Shown in pieces: positions 7,101 through 47,700 of a stretch of DNA of 64,000 nucleotides (its first letter is position 1; the number at the start of each line of letters is the position of its first letter). Origin of the DNA: Podarcis cretensis. Taxonomy: Eukaryota. The position numbers and the translations under genes are program-made. The notes beneath the pieces are model-generated. The model did no database searches. It worked only from the letters and a program-made list of their open reading frames with translations, and was not told the origin of the DNA. Location of the stretch: positions 60,016,001 through 60,080,000 of the forward strand of contig OX638151.1 of assembly GCA_951804945.1 (NCBI GenBank). Reading direction: 5' to 3'.

Positions 7101-10100
7101 AGTTAACACAATGTTTAAATTGACAAACTAGTTTACATCTGGCTGGTAAGTAAGAATAAGATACTGTTTGAAATAGGTAATAAAACATGGGGTCAGATCC
7201 AAAGGTTATGTAAGCCCAAGACCACTTGTAGAATTGATCATTCACCCGTCCTTCCCATTATTTCCAGGATTCACTCCAGAACAGTATGGGCCGAATCATG
7301 GGAGGCTGTCACAGAATGGGGAACCACCCAAAATCAGGTTGAGGAAACGTACATTAGGGGAGCTCCACAGCTAGCATTCAATCTGTTGCAGCAAGAGTCT
7401 TCTGCCTAATTTGGGGTGGCATTCCCACTGCAGCCTTCCATGATACACCCTGCAGTTGAGATTCCACCTTTACTGTCTGGAGCAGCCTTTCAGGGGTGCA
7501 GGGGACTGCAGAGGAGTGGAAAGATCAGTTGTGTAAGCATTCCACTGAGCAGCCTCTTTGCTTACGATGGCTTGGTACAATGATTCAACTGACAAAATTT
7601 GCAGCTGAGGCACTGCACCAGATCATCAAGAGAATAACAAGCAGTAATGGCATTTTTGGAACCGCAGAGTATTGTTTGGATTCTAAACTATGGTTAACAC
7701 AAGCCACGATTTTAATGATATTTAAGCAGAGCCCTATTAAGTCATAATTCCAAACAAAATGATTTTAAATAGCTGTGAACTGCATTCTTAATGTTAATTA
7801 GTCAAGCCAAAAGAAGAAAAATGCATGTAGCAAAGGGATGGCAAAAGTTATCTTTTGCTTCAAAGTCATTCAAAAACTGCATTAAATCACATAAATAGGT
7901 AAACAAGTGGCTAGTTTATCAGCAGTCCTGCATACAGGTTACATATGAAGTATGCATGTTATGACTGCATGTTCTCCCCATCACTTGTACAGCTTCAGTG
8001 TGAACTGAAGAATCCTTTGTTCTAGGCTCTGTTGCAGATAAAATATGCAGCATCTGTTTGACAGATTTTAAAATAAATTAATAATAATAGAATAAGTCTA
8101 TTATTTTAATACTGTAAATATATTACAGCTGCAACAATATTTACCCATCAAATCCTTCATTTTCCCTGTGTAGTTGCAGTCTTATTCACCTATATAACAT
8201 TTGTTTTCTTAAAGTCTTTGTACATTTTATGTATTTTCAGCGAACACATCTATACTGATTATATTGCCTCCTTTTAGTATTGAATATCTTACCTAAAAGT
8301 CATTATATGTCCATTGGCACAGAAACAAGCAAGGCAGATACTGTTACTCAGTGCCACTATATCTCCACGAAGGACAAATGAAGTCTCTGTTATATTTTGC
8401 TTATAAGTACAGTTCTGTGAAGGCAGTGAAATAACTTTTGCTTGCTTTTCAGAACATATCACTGCATATTGGTTTTCACTGATTTCCTGAGAGGAGGATG
8501 GAGACACTGAGACAGGCCGGCGTTTCTTCACCTTATCCTTTTCGTCCTTGTCTTCAGGAACATTGGGTTCTCTCCAGGGTTCATATGCTGGTGGAACTAA
8601 TGATCCTGTAGTGTCCAGAAAAGCCATTCTCAGTATTGCCCCTTTAAGCCTTAGTATGGTTCCTAAGATACAGAAACAGAGAAAGTTGCTAAAATAGCTG
8701 TACAATTTTTGACTAATAAAAAAATGTTCAGCCTAATACACTGAAATGCATTCCTAATTTATAAAGCACTCTTAAACTATTGCCTCCATAATACCATGAC
8801 ATGTAGAATGTGCTTAGGGGTCACTCCTAAACAAGGGTCCTTTCTGAAACGAATTCTTCAAGAAATACATATAAGAACATAACTTGTTCTTTTAATGAAG
8901 GATCATACTGAAGAACCCATATGAAAGTACAGTGGTGCCTCGCAAGACGAAAAGAATCCGTTCTGCGAGTCTCTTCGTCTAGTGGTTTTTTCGTCTTGCG
9001 AAGCGGCTTAGCGGCTTAGCGGCTATTAGCGGCTTAGAAAAAGGGGGGGGGGGAAAGCGAAAAAAAAATCGCAAGACTCGCAAGACGTTTTCGTCTTGCA
9101 AAGCAAGCCCATAGGGAAATTTGTCTTGCGAAGCGCCTCAAAAACGGAAAACCCTTTCGTCTAGCGGGTTTTTCGTCTTGCGAGGCATTCGTCTTGCGGG
9201 GCACCACTGTACATTTATATGTACTTATATTTGGAAGCTCATTTTTTAATGAAATACTGCCTTGGATTTGTTCTGTAAAAAAAAAGGGTTCCTGTTTGCA
9301 GAAGATACTGAGATCCAGCAGAGGGTCTATGCTGGAGGAAGGAATTCCCCCAGTTCCTTCTTCCTCTAGCCTCCCCATGTTGCTGCTTATCCCATAGGCA
9401 TCTGGCTGGTCACTGTGAGCGTAAGATGCTGGGCCTTTAATCTGATCCACTAGGGCTCTTTCTTTTATTCTTATGTACTCATGTCAGTTGCTGAAACTAC
9501 TGTAACAGATTTTCAGAGATCATAGGGGGGATGATGGAGAGAGGAAAGTAGCTAAAATGGTCTCCCCCTACCCCCCACATATAGTATAACTCTATGAATC
9601 ACATGTCTGGATCAAACTACTTCGTTTATACATCTTTTCTCTTTCTTTAACCCTGTGTTGAAATAAGATAATGCTGGCAACATGATGGCAGCACACACGC
9701 AAAAATTATAGTTCCTGCTTATTTTTTTTTTGGGGGGGGTGGAGAATTTTTAAAAAGCAGGATTTTCTGGCATCCCTCAGAGGTCCTTTCCATCTATAGG
9801 AGAAAACAATACAGAAATCTATAGATAAAGAATAATAAAATTCAGAGGAAAGGACTTGCTCACAATTGCCCTCAAATGCTGTTGTACAGGATAGCCAAAT
9901 CTACAGATTTTCTAATCCTGTGCTTCCAAAGCAAGATGACATGTCCATTTATACAAAGCACAATCTATCTGAGGCATATGGTTAGAAATATTGCAGTTTA
10001 TGAGTGATATTATTTTCCTTTTACACATATGTGAAGATGAAATTTTACAGATGAAAAGGATTGTGCTGAATTCCTATATACCTGATTATATATAAACTTT

Positions 10101-13100
10101 AGCACTATAAGAGAAGCCAACAATCACAATTCTCACAAGTAAGTTCATTTTTCTGGCAAAATATGCCAGAAGAAGCCAGCAAATGGCCTTCTTGCTTTTG
10201 TGCCGATGACTGTCATAATCACAACACCACGTTAAGAATTAAAAGCACATAGTATTTTGCACATTGTAAACTCTGCCTTGTGAAATACATACCACTGGGA
10301 GATACAATTACTGGCTGAAGTAGTCTTTGCTCTCCTCCTGGTGGTAAATTCAATGCAATGACTAAAACTGTACCCAACGTAGTGCCAACCCACAAGCAGG
10401 GTGAAGGTGCTGTATCAGCTTTTCGTGTGAAAGTCTCACAGAAATGAAGAGCTGAAATTGCTTCTCGAGATTCCTTGTCAATGCTGGTGACACTAGAACT
10501 CCTGGATCTGCTGAAGGAGTTGTCTCTAACATCTGAAATATTTAATATCAATTTAAACACAATGAAAAATAGTCCATCTTCCCTTTAAAGGACAGTTACA
10601 AACAGTTTAGCTATAAGGCATCTATAAAAACTCAATTCACTACAGTTAAGTCCATTTCACACATTGCATGTTTTAGGTGAACACTTAAGTAACAAGTGTG
10701 AAAGAAATGTGTTTGAACATACACATATATGCCCACAAGAGCACCATCACGGTCTACAAGTATCGACAAAAAAGTGAATCTATGTATCTGTACATGAAAA
10801 GTAGCTTGCAGAATATATCATACTTTATCATAATCACATTTATCTTTTAGATAGGACAACACAGCTGTGATCAAGTAATTTTTTTAAAAAAAGATATATA
10901 TCATAATGTTGCATGATGCGCCATTTCTCAGACCAGCTTGGTCATTTTCTTTCTGACTAAGTTTTATGAGATGCTATGCACTATGGAGGAAAATGATGTA
11001 AACATATTTTAAGTTCTTTTACAAACATACACAAACACACACAAACACACCCACTTACACACAGAGAGATATTGATTTCTTTTTTAGTTCAGATTAATAG
11101 TTCTCACTATTTTTTAAAGCTAGTTATTGCAACTTTAGGACAGAGGATCTATTTGCTTATGTAAATTAGATGAACCCATAAATGTACTTTTTTTTTGAAA
11201 CACCAATATAATATTAGGTCAGATTTCTGGGCCAAAAACTAGAGCCCAGACACTTAAAATATGTATTCTCATAGACCACCCAGCCACAGAATCTATTGAA
11301 CGTGTGTATTTAATGTGGAGAGATAGGGAAGGGGATGGTGGTAGAGTACGATACAGTTGTCTAGGTAAGATTAATTATGGGTGCTTGCTTTAGTGTATCT
11401 GTAGTATACGGTTAGCAACACAATGACGGTATTTGATAAAGGTACAGGGCAGGACCTTTCTATGGCAGTAGCATTAACTGTGAAGGCCACTGCATAAGAA
11501 GGTCAGTTCATGCCCATCTCTTTTGATGTTATTAAGTTTATCAGGAGCTCTTTGTTTCCAGTAGGGCTTTTGTTATTGATGATGATGTTGATGATGATGA
11601 TGCGTCTATTATTTTGTTATATTGCTTAATCTTATTGCTTAGTTTTAAAGTGTAGTTGTACTTTCAAAATTGTGGTTTTATTTTTATGGCAGAAAGTTTT
11701 ATACAAAAACTCAATACTTCTCAAGTTATAAAATAGTGAGATTTCCAAGTTGTGTGTCCCAAGAGGAGCTGAAGTGTACCTTGAAAAGTTAAGCCACCAT
11801 GTTGAATGTACTCAACTCTCTATGCTAAAGTAGCAAGAACATAGCATTGTTCCTCCTATCCTTTGCCAATATTTGAGCAGTGAAGGCATCTTGAAGGAGA
11901 GAGGAAGAACACACTGAGATTTTCTGACACAGTTCAGTCCATGTAAATATATTGTTCAGATCTTAGATCCATTGAAAGTATGAAAATGATTTCTGACCTA
12001 TTAAATTGCCATACTGGTCATACTGTCCCTTTCAAAAGTACAGTATGTTAAAATCTCATTTTCATACGAACACCAGACTTTTAAACCTGATATTATATAG
12101 TGATTTGCTGCATTTAGTAAGCATGTTTGTAAAGAAGAACTGCAAAAAAGCAGAAGGATCAGAAGTGTGAAGAAATACTGAAATTTCAAGATTAACATGC
12201 ACATCTGTAACAAATAAGATAAACCAAAAACCTTATAATTCACTGAAAATAGGGGATGTGCCTGACATTGATTTCTGCCTCTTTGACTTTTAGTTTGTAC
12301 CTTTCTTTTGATAGAGAACTCTATAGTAACTCTATTCCCTTAGTAAAACTGCAAGGGCTTTAATGGACACGTAAATTTGCTAAGACATAGTTCAAGAAAA
12401 CAGCATGATTTCATAAAGGCATTCAGATTTAAACATGAGCGTACGCCTACTGTACTACTAATATGTATACATGATTTTAGTTTTATATGCCAATGGTCCA
12501 ATCAAAATCAATAAAGAACGACACACAATTATATCCCCATGGGATCTTAAAACCTAAGGCCTCACTACTGAGGCCATGATCTGAAGAACTATGAAGTTCC
12601 ATTTCCTAAGGGTACTTTAAATTTTTTTTTTTAATTGTATCCCACTACTCCAGAATAGCAAACTATATTTAAAAGTAATGGTAGTTTCAAAGGCAGCTGT
12701 TTGTATTCTTGCCTAAGTTTCTCAAACTGTGTATACAGTTGCAGCAACACCCCATTGTGATGCACATAGCAGTTCATTAAATACTTGTTTTAAGACTCAG
12801 GTGACTGATTAGATCTTAAGAAATATTATGTAGCAGAAGCAGCAGCCTATTTATTCAATTTATTTTTTTACATTTATATCTTGCACACGTTATTCCTCCG
12901 ATGCCTCTTTTATTCACACAACAGTCATGTGGAATAGGTTAGGTTGAGAGAAAGTAAGTAAGCTCAAGTAAGTGAGCTGAATGACTCAATAGAGATCTGA
13001 ATCTGGATCTTCAAGTCCTAACTCAACACTCTTATAACCACTACACCACACTGGCTATGAAAAGAGGTATATAGGATTTCCTTAAACTATTCTTGTTTTC

Positions 13101-16100
13101 CATACAGTGTCCAAACTGATAATAATGTGAAACACGGTGATTAAAAAACAAGAACCTAAGAAGAAAATTTCATGTCTTATTTCAATAGATTTCCCATGGT
13201 TTTAAATGAGAAGAACATAAAAGTGGCTCCAAGTAGATGGAAAAGCATTTTGCTTACATGCATTAAATACTGTCAAATTTTGGAATACAATGGAAATTAA
13301 ATGGACTCCCCCCTACTTAGTAGTTCGGTCACTGTATGTGTTTCTTTTTCCGCAGCCTTTTCAAAAATTGTAAACATCATTAATACAGGCTTTGAACAAA
13401 CACTTACCTAACTCAGGTTTCAGTTCAGTTGGTAAGCTTAATTTTCTAGACATCTTTGCTGAAAAATAACGTATAGTTTTATAATAAAGCTAGAATGATC
13501 ACATTTTAAAGAGTTTATGAAACTAAGAATTTAAGCTGTTGGTTTCCAAAATAAGAAATCATATACAACAGTTGTAAGCAAGGAAGGTATGCGCATTTAC
13601 ACATATATTTGTAACAGGTTTTAGTGACAAGTGTGCAGTCAGAGTATGGCAGTGTACCTTCTTTGGAGTTATGAACAGTTAGGAACATTAGTAGTTAAAA
13701 TTCTCAGAATCTCTGATGTCTTTATTGTAGTGCACTGCAAGTCATTATTTTGTATGATTTCCCTGGCACTAAATGGATTTAACAATTGAGTCAAGTTTAC
13801 TTAAGCCTCTTTCCAACCACCTCCCCCAAACAATGGAATACTAACACTACAAAAAGAAAACCGCTGAGCCACAAAAAATTGATAAATTTTAGAAAAATTC
13901 ACAGAATTACACTGTAAAGTTAAAGACCACAAGAGTGGCTGTGGCTACTGGGAATATATTGGAGACAAATTTGTATAGAAAATAAGTTCATGAACTATGT
14001 TCCTGTGGAAGGACTCTTTTCTCCACTGATGAGGCCAAGTTAGCCAGAACCACCATTGGCAGAGGGCAACTCCATCAAGCCCCTACCTGCAAGGAATCTA
14101 ACTGCTGTCAAACAGCACTGTTCAACAGAGGGAAGAACCATGTGGAAGAAGCATCCCTGACCCAATTAGGGTACCGTTGCTCCTCTAGTTGGGCGGGGAC
14201 AGTGTGCAGGTGCTTCCAGCCTATCCCATTGTCAAGGCAGAGACAAACAGAACCTGAAGCAGTCTGGTCCTGTGCTCTAGAATACATCTACATGTGGAAG
14301 CCAACCCTGCTGAGAATGCAAACAATAAGATTCATACATATTTGTAAGCTGTCTTGACATATGCAAACCACTTTAAGATTTTTTTGTTGAAAAGCAGGAT
14401 ATAAATGTTCTAAATAAATAAAACAAGGTAATACTATGCTGCAAGTAAACTGGACAGAAAAGTGAGAAGGTGATGGAACAGTCAAAGAACATACTGTACT
14501 AGTTGATACCTAAACTCCAAATATAGCTGGAGAAGCCTGTAATCTTTAGGACTGGTGAGCCTTTAAGACTACATTTCCCGTACAAACTTGCTCAAATGCC
14601 CCACTCTGAACCTGAGGCCCTTCCTGGGGTCTTTTCATTGACGGTGTCTAAAAGTATGCAATTCCATCTTCAGGAAGGTTTGTTTGGCTCTCCTTTCTTT
14701 CAATAGGTTAAGATCATTTTGTTTAGATGTGCTTAAAGTGGGGTGGTGGGGGAGACAGGAGAAAGGGTTGCTGCTGTTTTGTTTGTTTTTAGTTTGTTTT
14801 ATACCGGTTGTTGTAAGATGCGGTTTTAAATTTTATTTTGTTTTATGTGATGTAAAATTGTTATGCTTTATGTTTTGTTTGTATGGTATTGATTTTAACC
14901 TTGCTAGTTGAAAAACCAGTTCTGAGAGATTTAGTGTAGATTTTAATATGGTCACATATTACACTTAGATATCATTTTGAACAAGTTGATTTTTAAAGGC
15001 CACTTACAAGTATGATTTTTAAAATTTTGCTAGTTTTGCATTTGCTTGGTAAAAAACGTATTTATTCATCCAGGTCACAGTGGAGACCTTGACAGCCATA
15101 GGAGAGACAGACAACGACACATGCACACACAAAGAAAATTTGTAGCCATATTAAAAATGCAAGCAAATTTCAGTGAGTTCTGAAGACCTGATCAGAAAAA
15201 TATATAAAGACACTCATTATTACTGGAGTATTTTAATCCATCTCACCATCAAAATTGCACTCCACATCAGCCAATAGTAAGTATTCAGTGAAAGGCACCA
15301 CAACAAACAGCTCTCAAAGAGCCCCAGACAAATCCCATCTAGGACGCATCAAACCCCAAAGCTTTAGATCTCATCAGATAGGGACAATGCACACATGCCT
15401 ACAGTAGGAATGTTACTGGTGTTTTCAATGAAAGTAGCTCACTAAACACAGATCTCAAGAACTCTAGATAAAAGCAAATAAGAAATTAAATTCTTTTAAA
15501 TCAAAGTCACCACTCATTGTTTAAAATAGGCAGCCACTATCAGAAGAATCTACCTGAGAAGGCCAAACATAACATCTAAAAAGTCTGGTACTGAATTATG
15601 ACCAATACAGATTTAAAATTGTACCAAGAAACATGACCACAGAACATAAGCAGGTGATCTAATCCTGCTCACTGAAAACACTGACCTTTGCCATAGAAGC
15701 AGCAATTGTTATGGACAAATTAGTATAATTCACACAGTACCTCTCTTGAAAGGAGTTCATAAATTATAATTATTGGGCATATCAGCCTAGCATGTAGATA
15801 AAACTGACACAGTGAGAACAGCATATAAGCAACAACTCAGAGGGTAAACCAATTGTCTCTTTTCCTTTACTCCTTTGCCACGCCTGCAGAATTTGTACCA
15901 TACCAACTTAACTGCAGTTTAAATCAGTAGGCAAAATTAACTAGCTATACATGTAATGGTGCCTGATTAATTACAGGAACCATTTTGAAAGCAGTTCATA
16001 TAGTTAATCATCTCTAGCAAAACAGTCACCTGCAGTCCACACCAACAGAAAATACCTTCTACTGAGGAGAAGGGCTTGCTTGTGGTTCCCCGTGTTTATG

Positions 16101-19100
16101 ACACAGTTTCAGAAGATATTTGGGAAAACTAATAGTTATTTCCCTAGGCAACTCTCTTCTATTGCTGTGGGTTTATTTTCTGCTTACTTTATTATTTATC
16201 TCTTTTTATGTTGCATGAATTCTGTTCAACACAAAATTGAGATAAATCATCTTAAAATAACAATAATTTTAACGTTCTTTGTATGCTTTTTTCATTTCTG
16301 CAAGCCAAACAGCTGAATTTTTGTGTGCCTTTGAGTCTCCTCCAAATACATCCTTGCTATGGTGGGTGAGGCCCAGAGAAAAAAGGAAGCCAGCCACTGC
16401 AGAGCTGCCCAGCCTGGCACTGAAAGATGAGGTCCTTAAAGTCAAAGTAGATCAAATTTCGGAAATATTGTGCCCACCACAGAGTCACCTGGCACACTAC
16501 ATCTCCGTTCAGTGCCTAGACTGTTAAAGCAAGAATACTGAGCCTACCCAGGAAGCAGCTCACCTGGTCCAGAACAATTGGTTTCCCCCCAAGGTCCTCT
16601 CACTTAAATGGGTGGCTCTGCAGCATCCTTCCTCCAGCTGGCAGCCATCTGCTGCTGCTTGCACCATAGGTTCATGGGGTGGGGAACAGACTGCCTACCC
16701 AGGAGGTGCAGGGGCTGGAGGAACAGATCACCTGCCCAGGGGTAAATCTTGCACAAGTCCTGGATAATCTGAATACCTGTAGAAGGAGCATGACAAACTT
16801 CCTGGACTGTCCAAAGGAAGTCTGCAAGACTGCTATTCTGTCTTATCTTAAGATAAAGCTGATAAAAAAAGTATGAATAATTGTCATGAGCCAGACTTAA
16901 CCTCTAGGAGCCCTCTTGATAATATGCCTCCTCTTTGTATACAGAGTAACTAAGATTACACTCTTTGAAGTCTTTCTGCTGGACATAGCAGAGGCTACTT
17001 TCAAAAGTGGTAATTTGCCAAAGATTTTCTTTGTCCTATTGCATCCATGCAGAGCCTTATGGTGGATTTATTCCAGAGGTCAATGGTCTTCTGTTCCCTC
17101 ATTCATCCAGAAGTTAGAATCTTCTGTAACCAAGTCAGACATTTTCACTAGTCACTTTGCAGATAAAATGCTCACATTGTTCTAACCTTTGTGCCACAAT
17201 TAGAGCAGAGTCTGAACTACAGGTTGCTCTTCCTTGGATTTAGCTTTGCCACTATCTCACGGCGATAGGATGTTTGGTAAGGCACATGTGCCATAGGCTA
17301 GCATCTCAAGCGGAGAGAGGAGGGAAGTAATCTTTTCTTGCCAGTATCAATCACTGCCATTTAATGCAGCAGACCAACCAATACCACTCGTGTCCCTGGG
17401 TGCTGGTGGAGTTGTGAGGCAAACCTTCAGTTTCTCTCCCTCCTTTGTTATTTCTTTTTCTCTTTTGACTGCACACAATGGCAAAGCAGCAGATTTTTAC
17501 CTGGAGGTAACTGGTGCTGCATACAGGTGTGTCATGCATATCATGAAGTAACACAGCTGGAGAACTAGTGGCATGATGGCAACATCCAACTCCATCCACA
17601 GTTTGTCTCTGAAAATGAACCTAATACTTTTGACTAGCATATCTAGCACACATCAGTAAATTTGTGGCATCTTCTAGGATTCTTTTTACAGACACTTATG
17701 CACCATGCCACACAGGCTGGTTGGTTAGTTACACATTATACAGGTGCTTCCTTTAATCATGGAACTGCTTGTAGGTGACAGTTTTTGTGAGAGTGAATCT
17801 CCCCGTCATTTCCTTTTTACTCTGCTACTAAATTAAGCCAAAAGACAGCAAGTAGAAACTTCCTTAATTTGAGAAGCTTCTGGTTTTATTTCCCAACCAT
17901 ACTAGAACAGTATGGCTGTGACTTCTTTGTGGCTGGATACCTCATTGCTCTCTTGACATCTGAATGAAAGCAGCACATAGAATGGGCATCACAGTATCCT
18001 AGAAGCCAGTCCTGTTGACACAGGAAGCGTAACAATGGAAGAGAAGCACTTAATTTGTAGTGACTTGCAGACAACTTGCAGATTAACAGATATGTTGATT
18101 GTTTCAACACATTAAAACTAAATCTATAAAATTCCCTTTGACACCGAATGTTGTGATAAACTCAAGATATTAAAGAAGAAACATGATCAAGAAAATAACA
18201 ATTAGACAACATGCTGTAAATATGCAAATTTAGAAGAGAGATAAGCCACTGTGGTTACTGTGAAATATATATTGTTACACATAATTAGTAAAATCTCACT
18301 ACAAATAAACAATTAGATAGAAATAATGGCAAATGGGAGGAAATCTGCTAAGTAATTTAATTTCCATTCAAACAGATGACCAATAGGTTTAACAGATGTA
18401 CTCTAAAATAAAAAGCAGAACAACTATATCCAAGCAATAAGGTTATTTCTTATGTTCTTACAACAGAAGGGTTCAATCCACCTTATGCACGTACTGCAAA
18501 CTTGGTAAGTAATTTGCAATTTAATTGTCAGTGATCAAAGATCAGTTAGCAACAAGGATTCAGAGAGAATACACTTATTGCTGAAATACATGAATTAAAA
18601 TGTTATGTACTTTATTCCCAAGAAGCTAAAACCATTGTTCCTGCATTTCAGAATTAGCGTTAACACTTTGAGAACCTATGTTAAAACCATTTTATACGGC
18701 AATGCTCACAGGATTGAACCCTTTCAGTATTTCTGAATAGAAACCAAAACCTTTGTAGAAGGATGTGCATATACAATTAGAGAAAATTAAGAGCCCAGTC
18801 TCTTGGATTGTGTTAATAATTGAGCACAGTATATTAGCAGAGAAGCAGCCCAAAGGAACACCACTTATGGTTAGGAGAATATTAATTTAACAAATATAAT
18901 GCAGCTTGCTTTGTTTTGCTGCAGAGTTAAGCGCTGCATAGAATAAGGTCCCAGGTAAGGAGCAAAGGAGAATTTTTCTAGTTCCTACCTATATCATTGG
19001 CTACCATCTTGGAAAACTTTCTGCTTTTGGTCTTCACTGCAAATAATATTTCAATACAAAATGTCAATTTACTAAAAATATGAGCTAATGAAAATTTATG

Positions 19101-19955
19101 ATAATTCTCTTAAAAATAAAAATACTATACCCTTTTCTATAAAATTATTCATTTTTTGATCATCATCAGAATTGTTGGGAGAACCAGAACCTAAATGAGT
19201 GAAGATAAGAATGAAAGGGACATACGAAATGGATATTAACAAAAAAGGATGCATACAAAAAAATTATGACAGATGACAAAATGAGAAAGACTATATATCC
19301 TAATCCATATCATATGCAACAATAAACCCCTAAATAAACACCTCTTTGGGTATTATGGATGATTTATAATTTCAGGCTTTTTTCCTGCAAAAAAAGAGGG
19401 GAGTATTCACCTATATCTCCTGCTTTATGCATAAGGACATCTACATTTGAGACAGATAACTTTTGCGTCTTCCATGTTTCACTTTCATCATACACAGCTT
19501 TAATTTTTTGAACTTATGCTGGTGTTACAATTTTCTAGTACAGATGAGACCATACAACCAAAGGAAAGCATAGAAGATACAGATTTTCTGATGGGAATTG
19601 GGAAATGGGAAACAAAACAGTCTGGAAAGGTTGCTTGTGTTCAGATTAACAAAAATATTCACATGATAATAATAGCAGGGATTCTAGTTCACATTTTAAA
19701 TGTCAATTTTTGTATTATCAATATTGCCAAAATAATTCAGAAGAAATAGCTTCATTAAGGTCTAAGGTGTGTTCCAGTGCACTTATCTCTGTGATAACAA
19801 ATGAAAATACAGCTACTTTTGCCAATTCTCTGTATTTCAATCCAAAAGTGAAAAGATTTGAAGTGTGGTTGTTTTGCTATTAATTACTTTAAAAACTAAT
19901 TGGAAATAACATCCTTTGTTTACCTGTAAAAGTGAATTTTGTAAATAGTTTTCTG

Positions 19956-22449: not shown

Positions 22450-25400
22450 TGTGTGTGTGTGTGTGTGTGTTAGTTATAAATAAAACTACATTATTCTACT
22501 TTAATATCTAGAACTCTTCAGAACTCCACAGGCAGCTAGGCAGCCTCATGCTGGAAGACCTATCAGAGATCTGTAAAACCTATGAGAGGATACACACAAG
22601 CATTGGAAAAGTTGATGTGGCGAAAAAAAGAGAAGCAAAAGTATTCCTGACAAAGAGCCAGATTTAGATTTCCTATTATAATATTAGTTATTATTATACA
22701 CCATTCACCATAAGGCCCTTGTTAAAAACAGTTAAAACAGATTACATCTAAAATATGTATCTCAGGTATCAAAGGCCAGAGTAAAGAGGTATGTTCTAAA
22801 TGAAATCCCAGCCAGTAACCTGGCTATTGTATTTTGGACCAGTTGCTGTTTCCAAGTCATCTTCAAAGGCAGCTCCACATTGAGTATATTGCAATAATCC
22901 AGCCTGGAAGTTATCAGTGGATGGAGTATGATGATCATGCTATCTCAGTTCATAGGGGGCTATAGCTGTAAACCAGTCAAAGCTGGAAAGAGGTATATCT
23001 AAGCATCAAGGACAACTGAGCCTCAAATGACAATACTGGATCCTGGACTATCCTCCCCTCCCAAGCTGTGCAGAACACGCCATGCCCCCCACATCCCGGA
23101 CTCAAAAACTTAGAACACATAATACCTGTGTTTTCAGGATTCGCCTTCAACTTATTGGGCCAATCCCACCCATCATTGTCTCCAAGCATTGGTCTAGCAC
23201 CCACATATTGGTGACACCTCACATCAAAACCCCTGATGAGAGCTCCCAGCATTTTCAGATAGATGTTACATAGCATGGAGGACAAGATGAAACCTACAGC
23301 TCCACTCACATGGTGCCAAACAATGGTCCTCCCCAAACTACTCTCTGGAAACAGCCCTAGAAGCAGGAACAGAACCAATGAATTGCATTGCCCTCCATTA
23401 CCCTCCATAGCGAAGAGAGAACAGAGAGCTTCATTTCACAGAGCTGCTCAAAACCTGAATTACAGATTAATCCAGAGACCACAGACCAACACAGAGAGAT
23501 AGAAATTTTAAGAAATGCACAGTACAATACTGGGGCCAGTACACACCCTGCCATTTGCAATTACACCTTTGTAGTTCAGACATGTCTGCACTTGCACCCC
23601 AAGAACAGGTAAGGTCACTTTTACTTGAATGAAACGTACGGCATGTATGATATTGTATCATAATTTAACTATACAGTGAATTCTTAATGAGTGCCTGGCT
23701 TTAAGTCCAGCACAGCAGGAGACACGCCTAAGCCTCTTTTGCAAAGTTCACATTTTGAATTTTGCCATTTACGGAGGGGATGCTTTAAAATTCACCCACA
23801 CTTATTGTGTAGAAGTATTTGCAGAAAATCACTTCTAGGCAGTATCTGATCTCAGGAGAGCCCACCACAAGAAAGAGGCATCCTGAACACCAGGAAAAAA
23901 GGAAGGATAAACTTCGGAGATTCCAGGGACTACTAGCAAATAAGACAAGCAGGAAAAGTGCACTAAATGGAAAGGAGAAACAGAAGGCTTTCCCAGCAGG
24001 ATAAATGGGTCTTTATAACAAGTTTTAGGTTTGTTTTAAATTGATTTGTTTTTGTGTTTTTAACCATTTTAAATTATATGTAAATCACCTTGAGACAGTG
24101 GTTTAGAAGGTGATTAATAAATTAACTGTAATACCAATACTAATATTGTCTGGTGTCCATACAACACACTCAACAATCACAGCTCTGACTTCACTCGCTG
24201 GCTAAAAAGCACTGACAGAGGCAGCCAGGCTAGCTCATTTCACAGAAATTGCTTAGAAGGATAACTGTACATTTTTGCATCATAACTTTCTTTCCAGGAG
24301 GGTTAGAGATTTACTTTTTTATTAAAAATAAAAAGGAAAGTTCAGTGTCTTGGTCCTTCGTCCAAGGGCACCAATGAAGGTCTTTGTGGGCACCACTGCA
24401 CATTTGTGACTTGTATTCTATTATCTACTAATGCCACTTTTTTTTACTGTTGCTTGCAAAATAGATGAAGGATGTAATCTGGATCTTATTGTACCCAATA
24501 TTCCATACTGATAGTATCTCAAGTAACACTCTATAATTATATTAATATAGAATTAATCTCTGCCGATATGTTAGTGAAAGAAGCTGAAAAGTAAAGGCTA
24601 TGGTAAAATATTCTGGGTGACGAATGCATATAACCTAATCAAGTGGATGTTAAAACACTTTATTCTTATGAGATGACTTACTTATATAAGAGGTGCGAAG
24701 TTTTTTCACAGACTCTGAATATAAGTTAGAGAGGCCACACATGCAAGAAGCCACAGCCAGCATGCCTTATTGAAGCAATGAGAAAGGAAAGACAAAAACA
24801 CCAACACAGTATATTTGGAGAAAGAAAAAAAATCTACATAAAAACTTTAAGATCCAAGCAAACAATGTATTTGTGGGAAATTGTTAGACAGCAACTGAAA
24901 TACAACAAATCATGCATGTGCCAGAATTCACACAGTGTAATATAATTTACTTGTTGTCTTACATAATATTTATAAAATTTTCCATTAATACTAACAATTT
25001 AATGACAAAACAAACCTATCCCTACTCAGCTGTTTAACTGTTTCATTTAAGAGGATATATTACTAATATTATAAAATAGCCAGACTTACTTGTACTTATT
25101 CTTTTAATAAAACTACAATTATTTAATCATCTTTAATATGGAACTACCAGGAAAGGCAGGTAGGAGGAGCCATAATTGCTGCTTATTCAACAGCCATAAA
25201 TAGTTTTACAACCATTACGAAGTGGTAATTCATGGAATATTGCAGTTTATATCTGAAACATTCGCAGTGTTCCATGTGGCTATTTTAGTAATTCATAATT
25301 GCATATAAGTACACAAAAAGTTCCATTGGTTGCTACCAGAAGAGCAGATCTTCAGTGCCTGATGAATGTTATTGGTTGAATATTGGTTCCAAAGGCAGGA

Positions 25401-32200: not shown

Positions 32201-35200
32201 ATCCCAAAGCAGCACATGTCAAAAGCCAAAAGTTTTTTCTACAATAAGATTAAGCAGTCTATGAAGGTAAGATACAGTATTTAGAAATACTAGCCTTACA
32301 CTTACTTTAAACATGGGACGTTATCCCGAAGCCCATCAGATGAGCTGCTGCTAGTGGATGGATGAGACTGGGGAGCAATGGACTGAGGGTTGGAACCTGT
32401 GCCTGGAGTAGGCAGTGGTGGCACTTGCTCAGAATCTGGAGACTCTATATAATTTATTTCATACAATAGCCGTACTTCAAGCATCTGCAAATGACAATAG
32501 AGAAGACATGACACAGTCCGAGAGTTCTTTGCACTGCAAATTTTGCAGTTGCCAATTCACTACTTTGGTCTCAACAACTTCCATAAAGTTAAATACAAAA
32601 CTTCTTATTAAAGACAAGTGGATGGCCTCAACCATAGTATCAAGCTGCAATGTATCAATCAAATACCAGACAATAAGGTACCAAGAGTACTATGAGGTTT
32701 GTTTGACACTATCCTGAGAGATGCTGGGAGCTGCAGGTAAATAACATTTAGAACAGCACGGATTTGCCATTCCTGTTTTAGAGAAACACTTGCAGCTGAT
32801 TCTGTGGGCTGTGACCACCTCCTCAGAACTGAGCAGTAACACAGGATCAAGAAATACTTCTGAGTGGTGCACCTTCTCATTTAAAGGCAATGTAACCACA
32901 TCTAGGAGAGGAAATAGCAGCATCTTTATAGACCTAGATTGTCCTGTCATCATGGTCCTGTCATCATTCCTATCAGGAATAAGCTTCAATTTGTTAGTGC
33001 TCATCCAGTCCATAACTACATATGTTCAGGCATTAATTAAATGCACAAACAATTGTTTCTTGGTTTGATGGAAACAAATAAAGCTGGGCGACATTGTGTA
33101 TATTGAGAAGAACTGCTGAACATTCTCCCTCCATAGCTGAAGAGCACTGTGGACATCCATCTCGGGTGATCCAGAAAATTTGATCAAATACCATGATACT
33201 ATATCAGGCATAGGCAAACTCGGCCCTCCAGATGTTTTAGGACTACAACTCCCATCATCCCTAGCTAACAGGACCAGTGGTCAGGGATGATGGGAATTGT
33301 AGTCTCAAAACATCTGGAGGGCAGAGTTTGCCTATGCCTGTACTATATTGGCAATACAGATAATGAACAAGTTATACCCTCCCTGTTCAAATCTAGATGA
33401 AGACAACCAAAGCATTACGGTGTTCTCAAACCCTCCCAAATATTTACTGATATGGGTCAACAGTCTGCCTCATCCATCAATTTTTTGATTTGATTATGAA
33501 CAACTTATGAAACCCTCCAACCACTGTCTATGATTTAATGGGTGAAAAAACTGAACAAACCTGTATAAAAATATTAGCTGCACTCTCTTCATAAGGCCAG
33601 GTATAAAGTACATGTGACCAAGGAGCTACTATGAGATTTTACCTTTAAGCAAGCATCTAATGCAAGATTAAATTGTTCAATCTAATTTCAATTTATCATT
33701 TTCAAAATAAAATGGATTTCAGCTAAATTTTAATTGTATTTGTAATGAGTAAGCCTAATGTTTTCAGCATATCCTATTCCCAAGAAAGTGACATAACCAC
33801 TGAGCATGGAACAAACTAGTCAAAAAAATGTTCAAGCTAGTTTATACTAGTTTATATATTGGCTAAATATAGGGATTAACAAATATATAAATGCATGTCC
33901 AATATAGATAACTGTCAATTACCGGAATCACATCTGTTGTAATTTCTTGTTTGCTGAATCTGTAAACAATGACATGTGCAGAAACTCCTGCAATGCACAG
34001 CATCCTGCTTTCTGCACACCACGAGATGATCTGAATGGCATATGGGTCTTCATCTACTATGTCTGTGCTAGGTCTGTCGTCCTTATTTTTTGATTTTTCG
34101 AAGACTTTAGCTGTTTTTAGTTTGTACAGCACTTGCAATGTTACTAGGAATAAAATAAAAAATAATTACCAACGTAATTTTGTAAACAAAAATATTGTTC
34201 AAATAAGGCCATTCTGAAACCATGGTAATACAGTGCTCACATTTCCATTTAAGCTGATTGAAAGTTCCTCTGCGGGTGATGTGTGCATGTTTGCTAGTGA
34301 GATAGATATCAATTTGTATTCCGCACACATGTGGTTCCAAAATATAACACTTTTCAGGATGTTGAGGAACTTCAGTGGGAAGACAAGGGTCAGGAGGGGC
34401 CTGATAATTTATATGCAAATCATTGCATGCAGTCCTTTCGATCCTGGGCATTGTGTATTATGGCCAGAATCCAAAGGGCACAGAAGCAGAAAAGCTTTGC
34501 AGCCTTCCCTTATGCAGAGAAGGATTGTGCCCTCAATTATGAAATGCCATTAAGACAAAATATATAATCAAAAATAGTGTTACAGCACCTTCTATGCTCC
34601 AGGATTTCAATTTGTGTTTCAAGGAGGTGATACGGGTTGCTTAGGAGGTATCAAGTAACTATCATGTATGATTTGAAACCTCATCTCCTCCATCACCTTC
34701 CTCACTTCCTGTCTTTCATATCAAACTTTTGGCTCAGAGGTTAATTACACTCAAGTCCTATTTAAGCTGAGCAGACAATTTAGTCACAGAGGCAGGGCAG
34801 AGGGATTGTGGTGTTAAGGGCACACTAGCAGAGCCCATACGGTTCTCCTGCTGGTGTGCCTTTACAGCCCGACTCTCACAGCCACCCTGCCTCATCCCCT
34901 ACAGCAACCTGGTAAGAAGCAGTGCCACCTCTTATGGGAGAGGCAGTTCTGCAGATGCTGGCTATTCCTGGTCACAACTAATTTAGGACCATTCATTCCA
35001 ATGGGAATTAAGTACAGCAGATTTGAGCAAACAAGGCGAGTAAACTCCAAAAGATGTCATCTATAAGGCAACAGTTTAAGCAAAACACTCACTTGCAGAG
35101 GCATCCCAAAACTTGATCGATCCATCTGCATGCCTATCAAAACAAGAATTTTTTAAAGCAAAATCTCTTTAGAAAAGAAATAGCAAGGCCGATGAGATTT

Positions 35201-44700: not shown

Positions 44701-47700
44701 TACTCTTTGATCTTTTTAGCTAGCATGCATTTTGTATCAAGATTCAATTGCCATAATCAATGCATGTGGAAGTGAGCTAGCCTACAAAATGTTTCCTATA
44801 CAATTGATTTTGGAAGTCTGACTGGTCAACTGGAATTGCATCATGTGATAATTGGTCAACCTCCTATCTGATGAAAATCATAAAACTTTCACATCATGCT
44901 ATATTAAAAATGTACTATTAATCAAGAACAGAGAATTCTCCTGGTGTAAATCAGCATTCATCAACATCTCACCAACTATGCACAACTGAAAAGGTGACAT
45001 TTGATTTTACAAGGCAATGACAAACTTGATTTATAATAAAATGAGAATCAGATATGACATGTAATAAACGGGATCTGCACTCCATAAAGGCTTTGCTATA
45101 AGCAAAAAATGAATCCAGTTTTTAGACTTACTAAGACTACTGCATTAAAACACATGTATAAAATATTTATCTTATTATTTTCTACTTTGACTAGAACATT
45201 AGATTGCTGAAGTCATACACATGAAGTGCAGGACTAACATCCTGCAGTGGTGTCCAAACTTTTTTCAAAGAGGGCTAGAGTTGTTGAGCTTTTTTTAGGA
45301 TTGAAGGACTAGTAGTGGAAGTAATAAGAGTTTTTTGTTGTATGCAGCAATCATCAGCTAACACAGCAAAATACTTCAGAGAAATTCTTCAAAATAATTG
45401 CAATGTAACAGTTAAGACTATTGAAATTTCTGTAATTTGGGAGCGCCTGGACAATTCATAGCAATGCTAAATAACAATCTAGTACTGTTACTAGAAAAAC
45501 AGCTCTAAAATTTAAACTTATTTAGAAATATAGCCACCCCTGCACTAGAGTAATAATGTGGCCCAGTCAGATGCCGTCCAATTTCAACTCCCATCAGCGC
45601 CACGCAGAACAACCAATTGTCAATGATTAGGGGTTATTGGGAGTAGTAATTCAACAACATTTGGAGGACCACAGACTAGTTACCCAAGCTTCAGAGACTA
45701 TACCTGTGGTTTTCAGTTTTCCACTAGATTAGATCTTCTAACTGCTAAACTGGTCAAGAAATCCCAGAATTCCCAGAACATACTTTGTAAAAAGTGCTAT
45801 ATGCTACATTGACTATTGGATTAATTACACGTAGACTTGAAATTTTTGAACTATAAAAACTCAAGGCCAGTGATATTTTACATACAACACATTTGAAAAG
45901 GCATTAAAATGTAAATTGAAATTAGTCCATCAGATTAAAACACAAGGTGAAAATCAGTTTAACAATGAGCCCTGTGACTTGAATATTCCAGCCAAGTATA
46001 CAGCAATAATCCTGCATTAAACTATTATGAAACAAAGCAAACCACAATGTACTACTTTTTAAAAAATAAAATTCTTTCAAGTTAAGGAATTGCTCATTTC
46101 CTAAAATGCCTGTAGCGTAGCTTGTGAAACCAGATGCCTTTCTAGGTTTCTTTGATGTCATTTTTATTTCCCCACATTATATAGCTACTTCTAGCTATGG
46201 TATAAAACGAAGCAAATGTATCCTCTCTGTATTTTTTTACTTCTATCAGTGCAGTGGTACCTCGGGTTACAGACGCTTCAGGTTACAAATGCTTCAGGTT
46301 ACAGACTCTGCTAACCCAGAAATAGTACCTCGGGTTAAGAACTTTGCTTCAGGATGAGAACAGAAATCGCGCTGCAGCGGCGCAGCAGGCCCCATTAGCT
46401 AAAATGGTATCTCAGGTTAAGAACAGTTTCAGGTTAAGAACGGACCTCTAGAACGAATTAAGTTCTTAACCCAGGGTACCACTGTACAGATTCCCAAATT
46501 ATTCTATCACTATGCTGCAATATCAGAAAACTTTGATACAAGACTTCATAAACTGTGCATTCATAGCATCAGAAAGTCCACATGACCATGTTTTTATGTA
46601 TCACAGCAAAAGTCAGGGTCAAGAAAGAGAAACAGAAGTGACTCAACAATAACACAGGAAAGTGATGGAAACATTTATTGTCTCTGTACTAAATGTTGGT
46701 ATCAAAGGAACAACAAAAATGAACAAAGGCAACTGCATGAGGAAAGGTGCAATTTTCTCCTGTAGAACTGTAAAGCAGATTTCCCTCTTCATTCTGGAAG
46801 GGGTCTAACTGCACACTAGTGATGTGAAAGTCCATCATGACAGGAATCATCAGGCTAGGAAATGTTGTGTATTGCAGATAGAGAAGCCTTGATTGCAGGG
46901 ACAGGGAACCTCCAGCCTCTAATTAGGTCTGCCAGGCCTCCCCATTTGGCCTAAAGCCCAAGCCACACCCACTGGCCTATATCACGTCAGGACATGACTG
47001 GGCCAAAGGGGGTTTTGTAGGCACTACTGATCATTTGCATCTCAAAGCCCTGGCACACAGCACTTTGACTGTTGGGGCTTGCACAGTTCTGTAAACGGTC
47101 CTTTTACGCCATAAAGTTTAAGGGGAAAAATTAAAGTATTTTCCTGTTCTGCCTTTGTGAACTTGTTCTAAATGATTCTTTGATAACAGAAAGCACACTT
47201 AAGAATACATTTCCTGGAGCTTTGGGTAGAAGAGATGCCAAGCCAAGCCTTCTGCTACACATCAAAAATCTGAAGAAGTGTGCGTGCACACAAAAGCTCA
47301 TACCAATAACTAACTTAGTTGGTCTCTAAGGTGCTACCGGAAGGAATTTTATTATTATTTTATTTTATTTATTTTGTTTCGACTATGGCAGACCAACACT
47401 GCTACTACCTGTAATCAAATCCCACCACTTCACACTTCCCACCATGAAAATATTGCTTGTTATCTGTCAGCTTCTTGACAACTGATCCTTTCCTCAATTC
47501 ATGAGCAAGAACAGCGTAATTTAGAAGACAACCGGGGTGGGGGAAAAGCAGGAATCTGGGTAGCTTTTCAACCTATATGCTTTAATAATACCAACTGCAA
47601 ATTAAGACCCTGGTTTGCAATTACTCAACTTCTACAAGTGTACAGTGCTCCATTCCTCTTCAGTGATGATGAGCTGGATATATAAATTTTAAAGCACATC

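What the first reader, a model, noticed from the sequence alone, without database searches (positions are those of the whole stretch)
18467..18723. Perfect 13-bp inverted repeat closes a loop around the candidate poison exon
Seen: aagggttcaatcc (18467-18479) and ggattgaaccctt (18711-18723) are exact reverse complements in AT-rich, non-repeat intron. In the pre-mRNA they lie 131-143 nt upstream of the acceptor and 16-28 nt downstream of the donor of the 86-nt candidate exon. Established: long-range complementary intronic pairs can loop out and silence cassette exons. Caveat: by rough arithmetic one such pair somewhere in 64 kb is not improbable; the tight placement around an exon-like unit is the notable part.
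Basis: partly seen in the sequence, partly recalled or inferred. Interest (0 to 1): 0.7.

Follow-up and report, generated by a model that had tools for sequence, protein, structure and literature searches.

The report
Nested RNA fold in tomosyn intron
In a lizard's gene for the vesicle-release brake tomosyn-1, a unique inverted repeat is predicted to close a folded stretch of intron that likely keeps a weak, stop-codon-carrying exon-like piece out of the mRNA, though no RNA read here shows that piece being used.

Summary
The 13-bp inverted repeat is real and single-copy. It lies in the minus-strand pre-mRNA of STXBP5 (tomosyn-1), 266-522 nt downstream of a known cassette exon. Alone it is unremarkable: shuffles give about 0.5 such pairs per window, and 0.1 at this stability. 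The enclosed 257 nt are more striking. They fold at z -4.6, rank 3rd of 246 tiles, and fold better on the transcribed strand. Three related organisms share a letter that makes a nested 14-bp stem (0 of 400 shuffles; found post hoc). That stem ends on the candidate acceptor AG and carries UGCAUG (RBFOX motif, recalled); the window species has lost both. The poison exon itself is unsupported. Its donor is weak and loses +5G in the one relative that covers it. Four low-depth, probably-RNA contig sets show no joints or loose ends at its edges. The arms are unchanged in relatives 2-4% apart, which is uninformative, and deeper conservation could not be tested. Verdict: a plausible loop-out structure of the BRD2/BRD3 kind, not shown to function. 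The scan noted similar loop-outs in two other genes, but not this element.

The parts
18711..18723 (-). 5' arm of the outer 13-bp stem (pre-mRNA orientation)
   Evidence: unchanged in organisms G (X15) and H (X19)
18467..18479 (-). 3' arm of the outer 13-bp stem
   Evidence: unchanged in organisms G (X15) and I (X18)
18638..18651 (-). 5' strand of the predicted inner stem. In relatives G, H and I it pairs over 14 bp with the acceptor strand and holds UGCAUG at 18645-18640; the window species has one mismatch at 18641 and no motif
   Evidence: 3 of 3 covering runs differ at 18641
18581..18594 (-). 3' strand of the predicted inner stem: the pyrimidine tract and AG of the candidate acceptor
18495..18580 (-). 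Candidate cryptic or poison exon, 86 nt (84 nt in G and I), with in-frame stops; inclusion not observed
18548..18582 (-). Predicted hairpin over the acceptor AG and exon start; the 2-nt deletion of G and I falls in its loop
18493..18520 (-). Predicted 10-bp hairpin covering the GU of the weak candidate donor
18440..18752 (-). Predicted outer extension: short helices 18752-18739 pairing with 18450-18440 enclose the whole element
18989..19036 (-). Context: upstream 48-nt in-frame cassette exon of the tomosyn-1 variable region
19131..19190 (-). Context: upstream 60-nt in-frame cassette exon
13408..13458 (-). Context: downstream 51-nt in-frame cassette exon

Best explanation
The two arms are predicted to be the outer stem of a single-copy, nested RNA fold in the tomosyn-1 (STXBP5) pre-mRNA that likely keeps a weak, stop-containing cryptic exon skipped. 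Shown by sequence or calls: the arms, their place in the intron between known cassette exons, single copy, stops in the unit, and the relatives' letters. Predicted by folding: the outer 13-bp stem loops out 231 nt, an inner stem (14 bp in three relatives, 10+3 bp here) pairs the pyrimidine tract and AG of the acceptor, and a hairpin covers the donor GU. Inferred and untested: this silences the unit so that the message escapes nonsense-mediated decay, and in relatives an RBFOX protein on the UGCAUG in the inner stem could open the acceptor and tune inclusion.
For: Duplex -20.3 kcal/mol, pair probabilities about 0.8-1.0 for 12 of 13 pairs. Whole element z -4.64, 0 of 200 shuffles. 3rd of 246 tiles, behind a MITE-like element and a CA/TG microsatellite. 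Interior without arms z -2.1 on the transcribed strand against -0.2 on the other; exon part -4.0 against -1.2. With the letter seen in 3 of 3 covering relatives, the interior holds a 14-bp helix with at most 1 G-U, reached by 0 of 400 shuffles. It ends on the G of an AG that scores in the 98th percentile and lowers acceptor accessibility to 0.01, below all 19 real acceptors tested (0.21-0.64). The unit has stops at both 86 and 84 nt. Natural changes cost less folding energy than random ones, but not significantly (fraction of null 0.10-0.24).
Against: No joints and no loose ends at the unit's edges in 4 of 4 runs. X15 record 2 reads through both sites; X16 record 5 and X18 record 9 read through the acceptor (depth 3-6, RNA status guessed, neighbouring exons not in the laid stretch, so this is weak). 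Donor 3.8 bits, U1 duplex -1.6 kcal/mol against -6.4 to -10.7 for four real donors; +5 G>A in G, the only organism covering it, gives 0.7 bits. The window species breaks the inner stem and the UGCAUG, and its predicted accessibilities (0.29, 0.22) lie within the range of real sites. Blocking the 5' arm changes them little (0.27, 0.31). Substitution density inside the element (4 of 257) is not significantly below downstream (19 of 462, p 0.076) and matches upstream (5 of 237, p 0.74). No compensatory change was seen. The inner-helix test was chosen after seeing the data.
Confidence: 0.38

Rival explanations
1. The fold is real and selected, but it acts on the neighbouring in-frame cassette exons (the b/m/s tomosyn-1 choice), as a structured intronic regulatory element or decoy acceptor that presents or hides an RBFOX site about 345 nt downstream of the cassette donor. 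The 86-nt unit is never spliced in.
For: The element lies 266-522 nt downstream of two cassette exons that appear in many inclusion patterns across vertebrate isoform models. Constraint spans the whole proximal intron: in X15, 3 of 476 sites differ against 15 of 419 further downstream, p 0.003. The acceptor is good but the donor is poor and variable, as expected of a decoy. UGCAUG in 3 of 3 covering relatives.
Against: UGCAUG occurs 23 times on this strand (chance about 0.09 per 257 nt) and is lost in the window species. No paper linking RBFOX to these exons stood out in the 25 listed of 29 (listing only). No splicing data were available.
Confidence: 0.25
2. Chance: an AT-rich, mildly constrained exon-flanking intron happens to contain a 13-bp inverted repeat and a pseudo-exon, with no selected pairing.
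For: 0.44-0.51 such repeats are expected per window, 0.10 at this stability. 71 acceptor-donor pairs at least as good exist in the window, real exons included. The arms would be unchanged by chance with probability 0.34-0.39. The inner stem is broken in this species. No homologue in the 80 kb of the paralog STXBP5L examined.
Against: Excess folding of the interior on the transcribed strand only; a nested 14-bp helix in relatives, 0 of 400 shuffles, ending on a high-scoring AG; rank 3 of 246 tiles.
Confidence: 0.3
3. The element is the relic of a small DNA transposon (MITE) whose terminal inverted repeats are the arms.
For: 257-nt size and perfect terminal repeats. Most other such repeats in this window and in the paralog region look like MITEs.
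Against: Single copy; the only other arm-core match in G000 has an unrelated interior; no target-site duplication in the flanks; folding is strand-asymmetric and the inner stem is off-centre.
Confidence: 0.05

Closest known systems
PCCR-controlled poison exons of human BRD2 (exon 3b) and BRD3 (cryptic exon 5b), PMC10789245 (passages seen)
   Same: A pair of complementary intronic regions surrounds a short, stop-introducing cryptic exon (92 nt in BRD2; 86 nt here).
   Different: Those stems are -29.1 and -34.3 kcal/mol, show conservation peaks, and were proven with antisense oligos and compensatory mutants. Here the stem is -20.3, deep conservation is untested, inclusion is unobserved, and a second stem covers the acceptor.
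Pairs of conserved complementary regions (PCCR) catalogue, PMC8052449 (passages and 5 supplementary files searched)
   Same: 13 nt and -20.3 kcal/mol meet its length and energy limits (at least 10 nt, -15 or better; energy group II; its medians are 13 nt and -17.2).
   Different: Membership needs conserved intronic regions in vertebrate alignments, which was not testable. The catalogue has about 75 pairs per gene, so such a pair is common. STXBP5 was not found in the files held, which are too small to hold the 916,360-pair list.
Intronic stem-loops that conceal branch sites and regulate poison exons, PMC11162794 (start of abstract, and a supplement search)
   Same: A predicted stem hides 3' splice-site signals next to a putative poison exon.
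   Different: Here the stem covers the pyrimidine tract and AG; the branch site was not mapped. The one chicken STXBP5 row seen resembles by eye the acceptor at window 13458, not this element.
Looped-out exons with an RBP site at the pairing (GPR126/RBFOX2, FGFR1OP2/QKI) and RNA bridges (ENAH), as described in PMC8052449 (passage)
   Same: An RBFOX-type motif lies within a paired region next to an alternative exon (in relatives).
   Different: No CLIP or knock-down data; the motif sits in the inner stem and is absent in the window species.

Membership tests
PCCR looping out a poison exon | Complementary intronic pair of at least 10 nt and -15 kcal/mol or better, within 10 kb | tested here: met
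   13 nt, -20.3 kcal/mol, 231 nt apart; limits
PCCR looping out a poison exon | Both arms conserved across vertebrates, or covarying | tested here: inconclusive
   Unchanged in relatives 2-4% apart, chance 0.34-0.39. The metagenome scan gave 14 loci, none homologous. No distant vertebrate genomes were available.
PCCR looping out a poison exon | The enclosed unit is a spliced exon (junction evidence) | tested here: inconclusive
   No joints or loose ends at its edges in 4 of 4 low-depth contig sets; 0 of 198 homologous proteins hold any 6-mer from its three frames. An NMD-degraded, silenced exon would be missed by both tests.
PCCR looping out a poison exon | Inclusion introduces a premature stop | tested here: met
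   In-frame stop after 10 codons at 86 nt and after 13 codons at 84 nt, for phase-1 entry
PCCR looping out a poison exon | Disruption raises inclusion and compensation restores skipping | not testable with these tools
   Needs a minigene or antisense oligos
MITE / non-autonomous DNA transposon | Multiple copies in the genome | tested here: not met
   1 match in G000; the second pattern match is unrelated. The searches are stated to give lower bounds.
MITE / non-autonomous DNA transposon | Target-site duplication flanking the terminal repeats | tested here: not met
   Flanks printed show none
Known structured RNA family (Rfam) | Match at the gathering score | tested here: not met
   5 matches, E 4-9.2, all far below gathering scores

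The most novel reading that the evidence does not exclude
Tomosyn-1 carries an undescribed, amniote-wide poison exon gated by a two-tier RNA fold. An outer stem loops the exon out and an inner stem hides its acceptor together with an RBFOX site, so that RBFOX binding opens the acceptor and lowers tomosyn-1 by NMD in neurons or muscle. The window lineage would have lost the RBFOX gate by one substitution.
Probability: 0.1. Interest if true: 0.7.

Novelty: new member of a known kind. Interest (0 to 1): 0.36.

Why it matters
Tomosyn-1 restrains SNARE-driven vesicle release in neurons and secretory cells (general knowledge; the secretion role is also in the title and abstract start of PMC5061411). 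A structure-gated poison exon or cassette switch would give a way to set its dose or isoform mix, and a direct antisense-oligo target. The one-letter difference between this species and its relatives is a ready natural test of the inner stem and the RBFOX site. The class of mechanism is already proven in BRD2 and BRD3, so the gain is a new gene and a nested layout, not a new principle. If the pairing is chance, the finding is ordinary.

Tried and rejected
1. Sequencing runs: no RNA holder listed on record; 6 of 24 runs were guessed RNA, and 4 of those 6 were laid. No DNA run was laid, so whether 18641 varies within the window species is open. Parts without contig cover are no evidence.
2. Metagenome scan for both arm cores: 14 loci, GC 42-70%, none homologous beyond the core.
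3. Paralog STXBP5L (G000:C17, 80 kb): no homologous element.
4. Rfam: nothing at threshold.
5. Protein searches for truncated or exon-containing isoforms: none in 198 proteins. A 16-aa insert at the same position in one eel isoform does not match this intron (best score 24, shuffle mean 24).
6. A 23-nt micro-exon overlapping the 5' arm (18732-18710) was rejected: donor -0.1 bits.
7. A plus-strand 38-nt pseudo-exon starting at the 3' arm is one of 11 such pairs in the window, with no read support.
8. Papers: nine searches (listings only unless named) found no description of this element. Supplement searches for STXBP5: PMC11632617, 0 hits in 1 file; PMC8052449, 0 in 5 files; PMC10123112, only STXBP5L; PMC11162794, one chicken row in a file cut when stored. 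PMC10573301 supplements could not be read. PMC3077652 and PMC3261731 are not held. The full PCCR and RIC-seq tables, which I could not see, may list the human orthologue.
9. Earlier-findings look-ups by relatives and by place returned nothing, and the word search was irrelevant.

Full report
Setting. The window holds most of STXBP5 (tomosyn-1) on the minus strand. An exon translation matches squamate syntaxin-binding protein 5 at 97-100%, and tblastn of 120 homologues maps about 21 exons. The element lies in the variable region, in the 5.5-kb intron between a 48-nt exon (donor at 18989) and a 51-nt exon (13458-13408). These and the 60-, 66- and 84-nt exons nearby are all multiples of three, and the isoform models include several of them in varying combinations. 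[quoted passage not shown] By my reading, its m-isoform primer joins the 66-nt exon to the 51-nt exon. The b/m/s naming is otherwise recalled.

The observation. The arms are exact, 13 nt long and 231 nt apart, and the distances to the 86-nt unit are as stated. The region is single-copy. Shuffles give 0.44-0.51 such pairs per window and 0.10 at -20 kcal/mol or better. Within the unit plus 200 nt on each side the chance is 0.005, but that region was chosen after the fact. 9% of 257-nt intervals enclose an exon-like unit with sites this good. The repeat alone is weak evidence.

The fold. The duplex is -20.3 kcal/mol, and 12 of 13 pairs have probability about 0.8-1.0 in five fold windows. The 271-nt stretch folds at z -4.64, 0 of 200 shuffles. 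It ranks 3rd of 246 tiles (8 shuffles each), after a MITE-like element and a microsatellite; the tile was set to contain the arms, which inflates this rank. Without the arms the interior gives z -2.1 (1 of 100) on the transcribed strand and -0.2 on the other, and the exon part gives -4.0 and -1.2. Predicted helices cover the acceptor AG and the donor GU. In the window species these sites are not more hidden than real ones (unpaired 0.29 and 0.22, against 0.21-0.64 for 19 acceptors and 0.12-0.71 for 18 donors), and blocking the 5' arm shifts them only to 0.27 and 0.31. Any effect of the arms would therefore come from looping, not direct masking.

The candidate exon. With matrices built from this gene's own 21 acceptors and 20 donors, the acceptor scores 7.8 bits (98th percentile of AGs). 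The donor scores 3.8, below 17 of 20 real donors, with a U1 duplex of -1.6 kcal/mol. The unit has early stops. None of 198 homologous proteins carries a 6-mer from its frames, which says little for an NMD target.

Relatives. Four of six probably-RNA runs (organisms G, H twice, I) were laid on 18000-18960. There were no joints. The two loose ends lie at 18245 and 18065, not at the unit's edges. Contigs run unspliced through the acceptor in three runs and through the donor in one. Depth is 3-6 there, RNA status is a guess, and the flanking exons were outside the laid stretch, so this is weak evidence. The 5' arm is unchanged in G and H, and the 3' arm in G and I; the chance of that is 0.34-0.39. 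One unlisted difference near an end of X16 record 5 could not be placed. Differing sites number 4 of 257 inside, 5 of 237 upstream and 19 of 462 downstream (p 0.74 and 0.076), so constraint belongs to the whole exon-proximal intron. G has A at donor +5 (0.7 bits; one contig, depth 6). G and I lack 2 nt in a predicted hairpin loop, which gives an 84-nt unit that still has a stop.

The inner stem. All three runs covering 18641 carry the same other letter. With it, 18651-18638 pairs over 14 bp (one G-U, -18.1 kcal/mol) with 18594-18581, the pyrimidine tract and AG, and acceptor accessibility drops to 0.01. No shuffle of 400 reached 14 bp. Of 277 real tiles, 4 reached 13 or more, all at places that searches show as simple repeats or the MITE-like element. 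This test was designed after seeing the helix. The H and I versions use window letters where their contigs give no cover. The same letter makes UGCAUG at 18645-18640 (RBFOX motif, recalled), a word with chance about 0.09 per 257 nt here. Forcing it open costs 5.6-8.5 kcal/mol and raises acceptor accessibility to 0.29-0.39 while the arms stay paired. The window species has a mismatch there and no motif, which argues against strong selection, at least in this lineage.

Reach. No distant orthologue could be had. The metagenome scan gave 14 unrelated loci, the paralog has no homologous element in 80 kb, and Rfam has no match. A MITE origin fails on copy number and target-site duplication.

Comparison and verdict. 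It works, if at all, like the loop-out pairs of BRD2 and BRD3 (PMC10789245, passages) and meets the length and energy limits of the PCCR catalogue (PMC8052449, passages). Conservation, exon use and function are not established, so it is a candidate and not a confirmed member. Nine paper searches and four supplement searches did not show this element; large catalogues that I could not see may. Odds: fold silencing a cryptic exon 0.38, chance 0.30, fold acting on the neighbouring cassette exons 0.25, transposon relic 0.05. Interest 0.36.

Noticed in passing
window 18467-18504 (+): The plus-strand arm begins exactly after a pyrimidine tract and AG, and a strong GTAAGT donor (10.7 bits) follows 38 nt later, forming an antisense pseudo-exon. 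It is one of 11 such pairs in the window, and contigs read through it.
   Followed up: partly
window 18433-18447 and 18568-18582: A 15-nt, 87% inverted repeat could pair the acceptor and exon start with sequence beyond the 3' arm, competing with the outer stem.
   Followed up: no
window 24682-24765 (-): An 84-nt in-frame cassette exon seen in squamate, bird and some mammal isoform models has a weak homologue in the paralog at G000:C17:822770-822829, and it contains a TGCATG at 24745.
   Followed up: no
window 19037-19130 (-): The short intron between the 60- and 48-nt cassette exons is read through in frame in one alligator-lizard isoform model (P0091), but has a stop in this window.
   Followed up: no
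window 13458-13580 (-): The chicken STXBP5 row with a predicted branch-site stem-loop in PMC11162794 Table S2 resembles by eye this acceptor of the 51-nt cassette exon.
   Followed up: partly
window 8927-9212, 33205-33340, 46332-46472: MITE-like elements with terminal inverted repeats; similar ends recur in the paralog region.
   Followed up: no
window 11002-11264: Another apparently non-repeat perfect 13-bp inverted repeat, AT-rich, -11.9 kcal/mol; useful as a chance control.
   Followed up: partly
proteins P0170, P0171, P0175, P0181, P0179: Fish and caecilian tomosyn-1 isoforms carry extra variable-region inserts of about 16-40 aa; the one tested (eel, 16 aa) does not match the lizard intron.
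   Followed up: partly
L020: G000:C17:826457-826669: A perfect 101-bp inverted repeat with an 11-nt loop in an STXBP5L intron.
   Followed up: no
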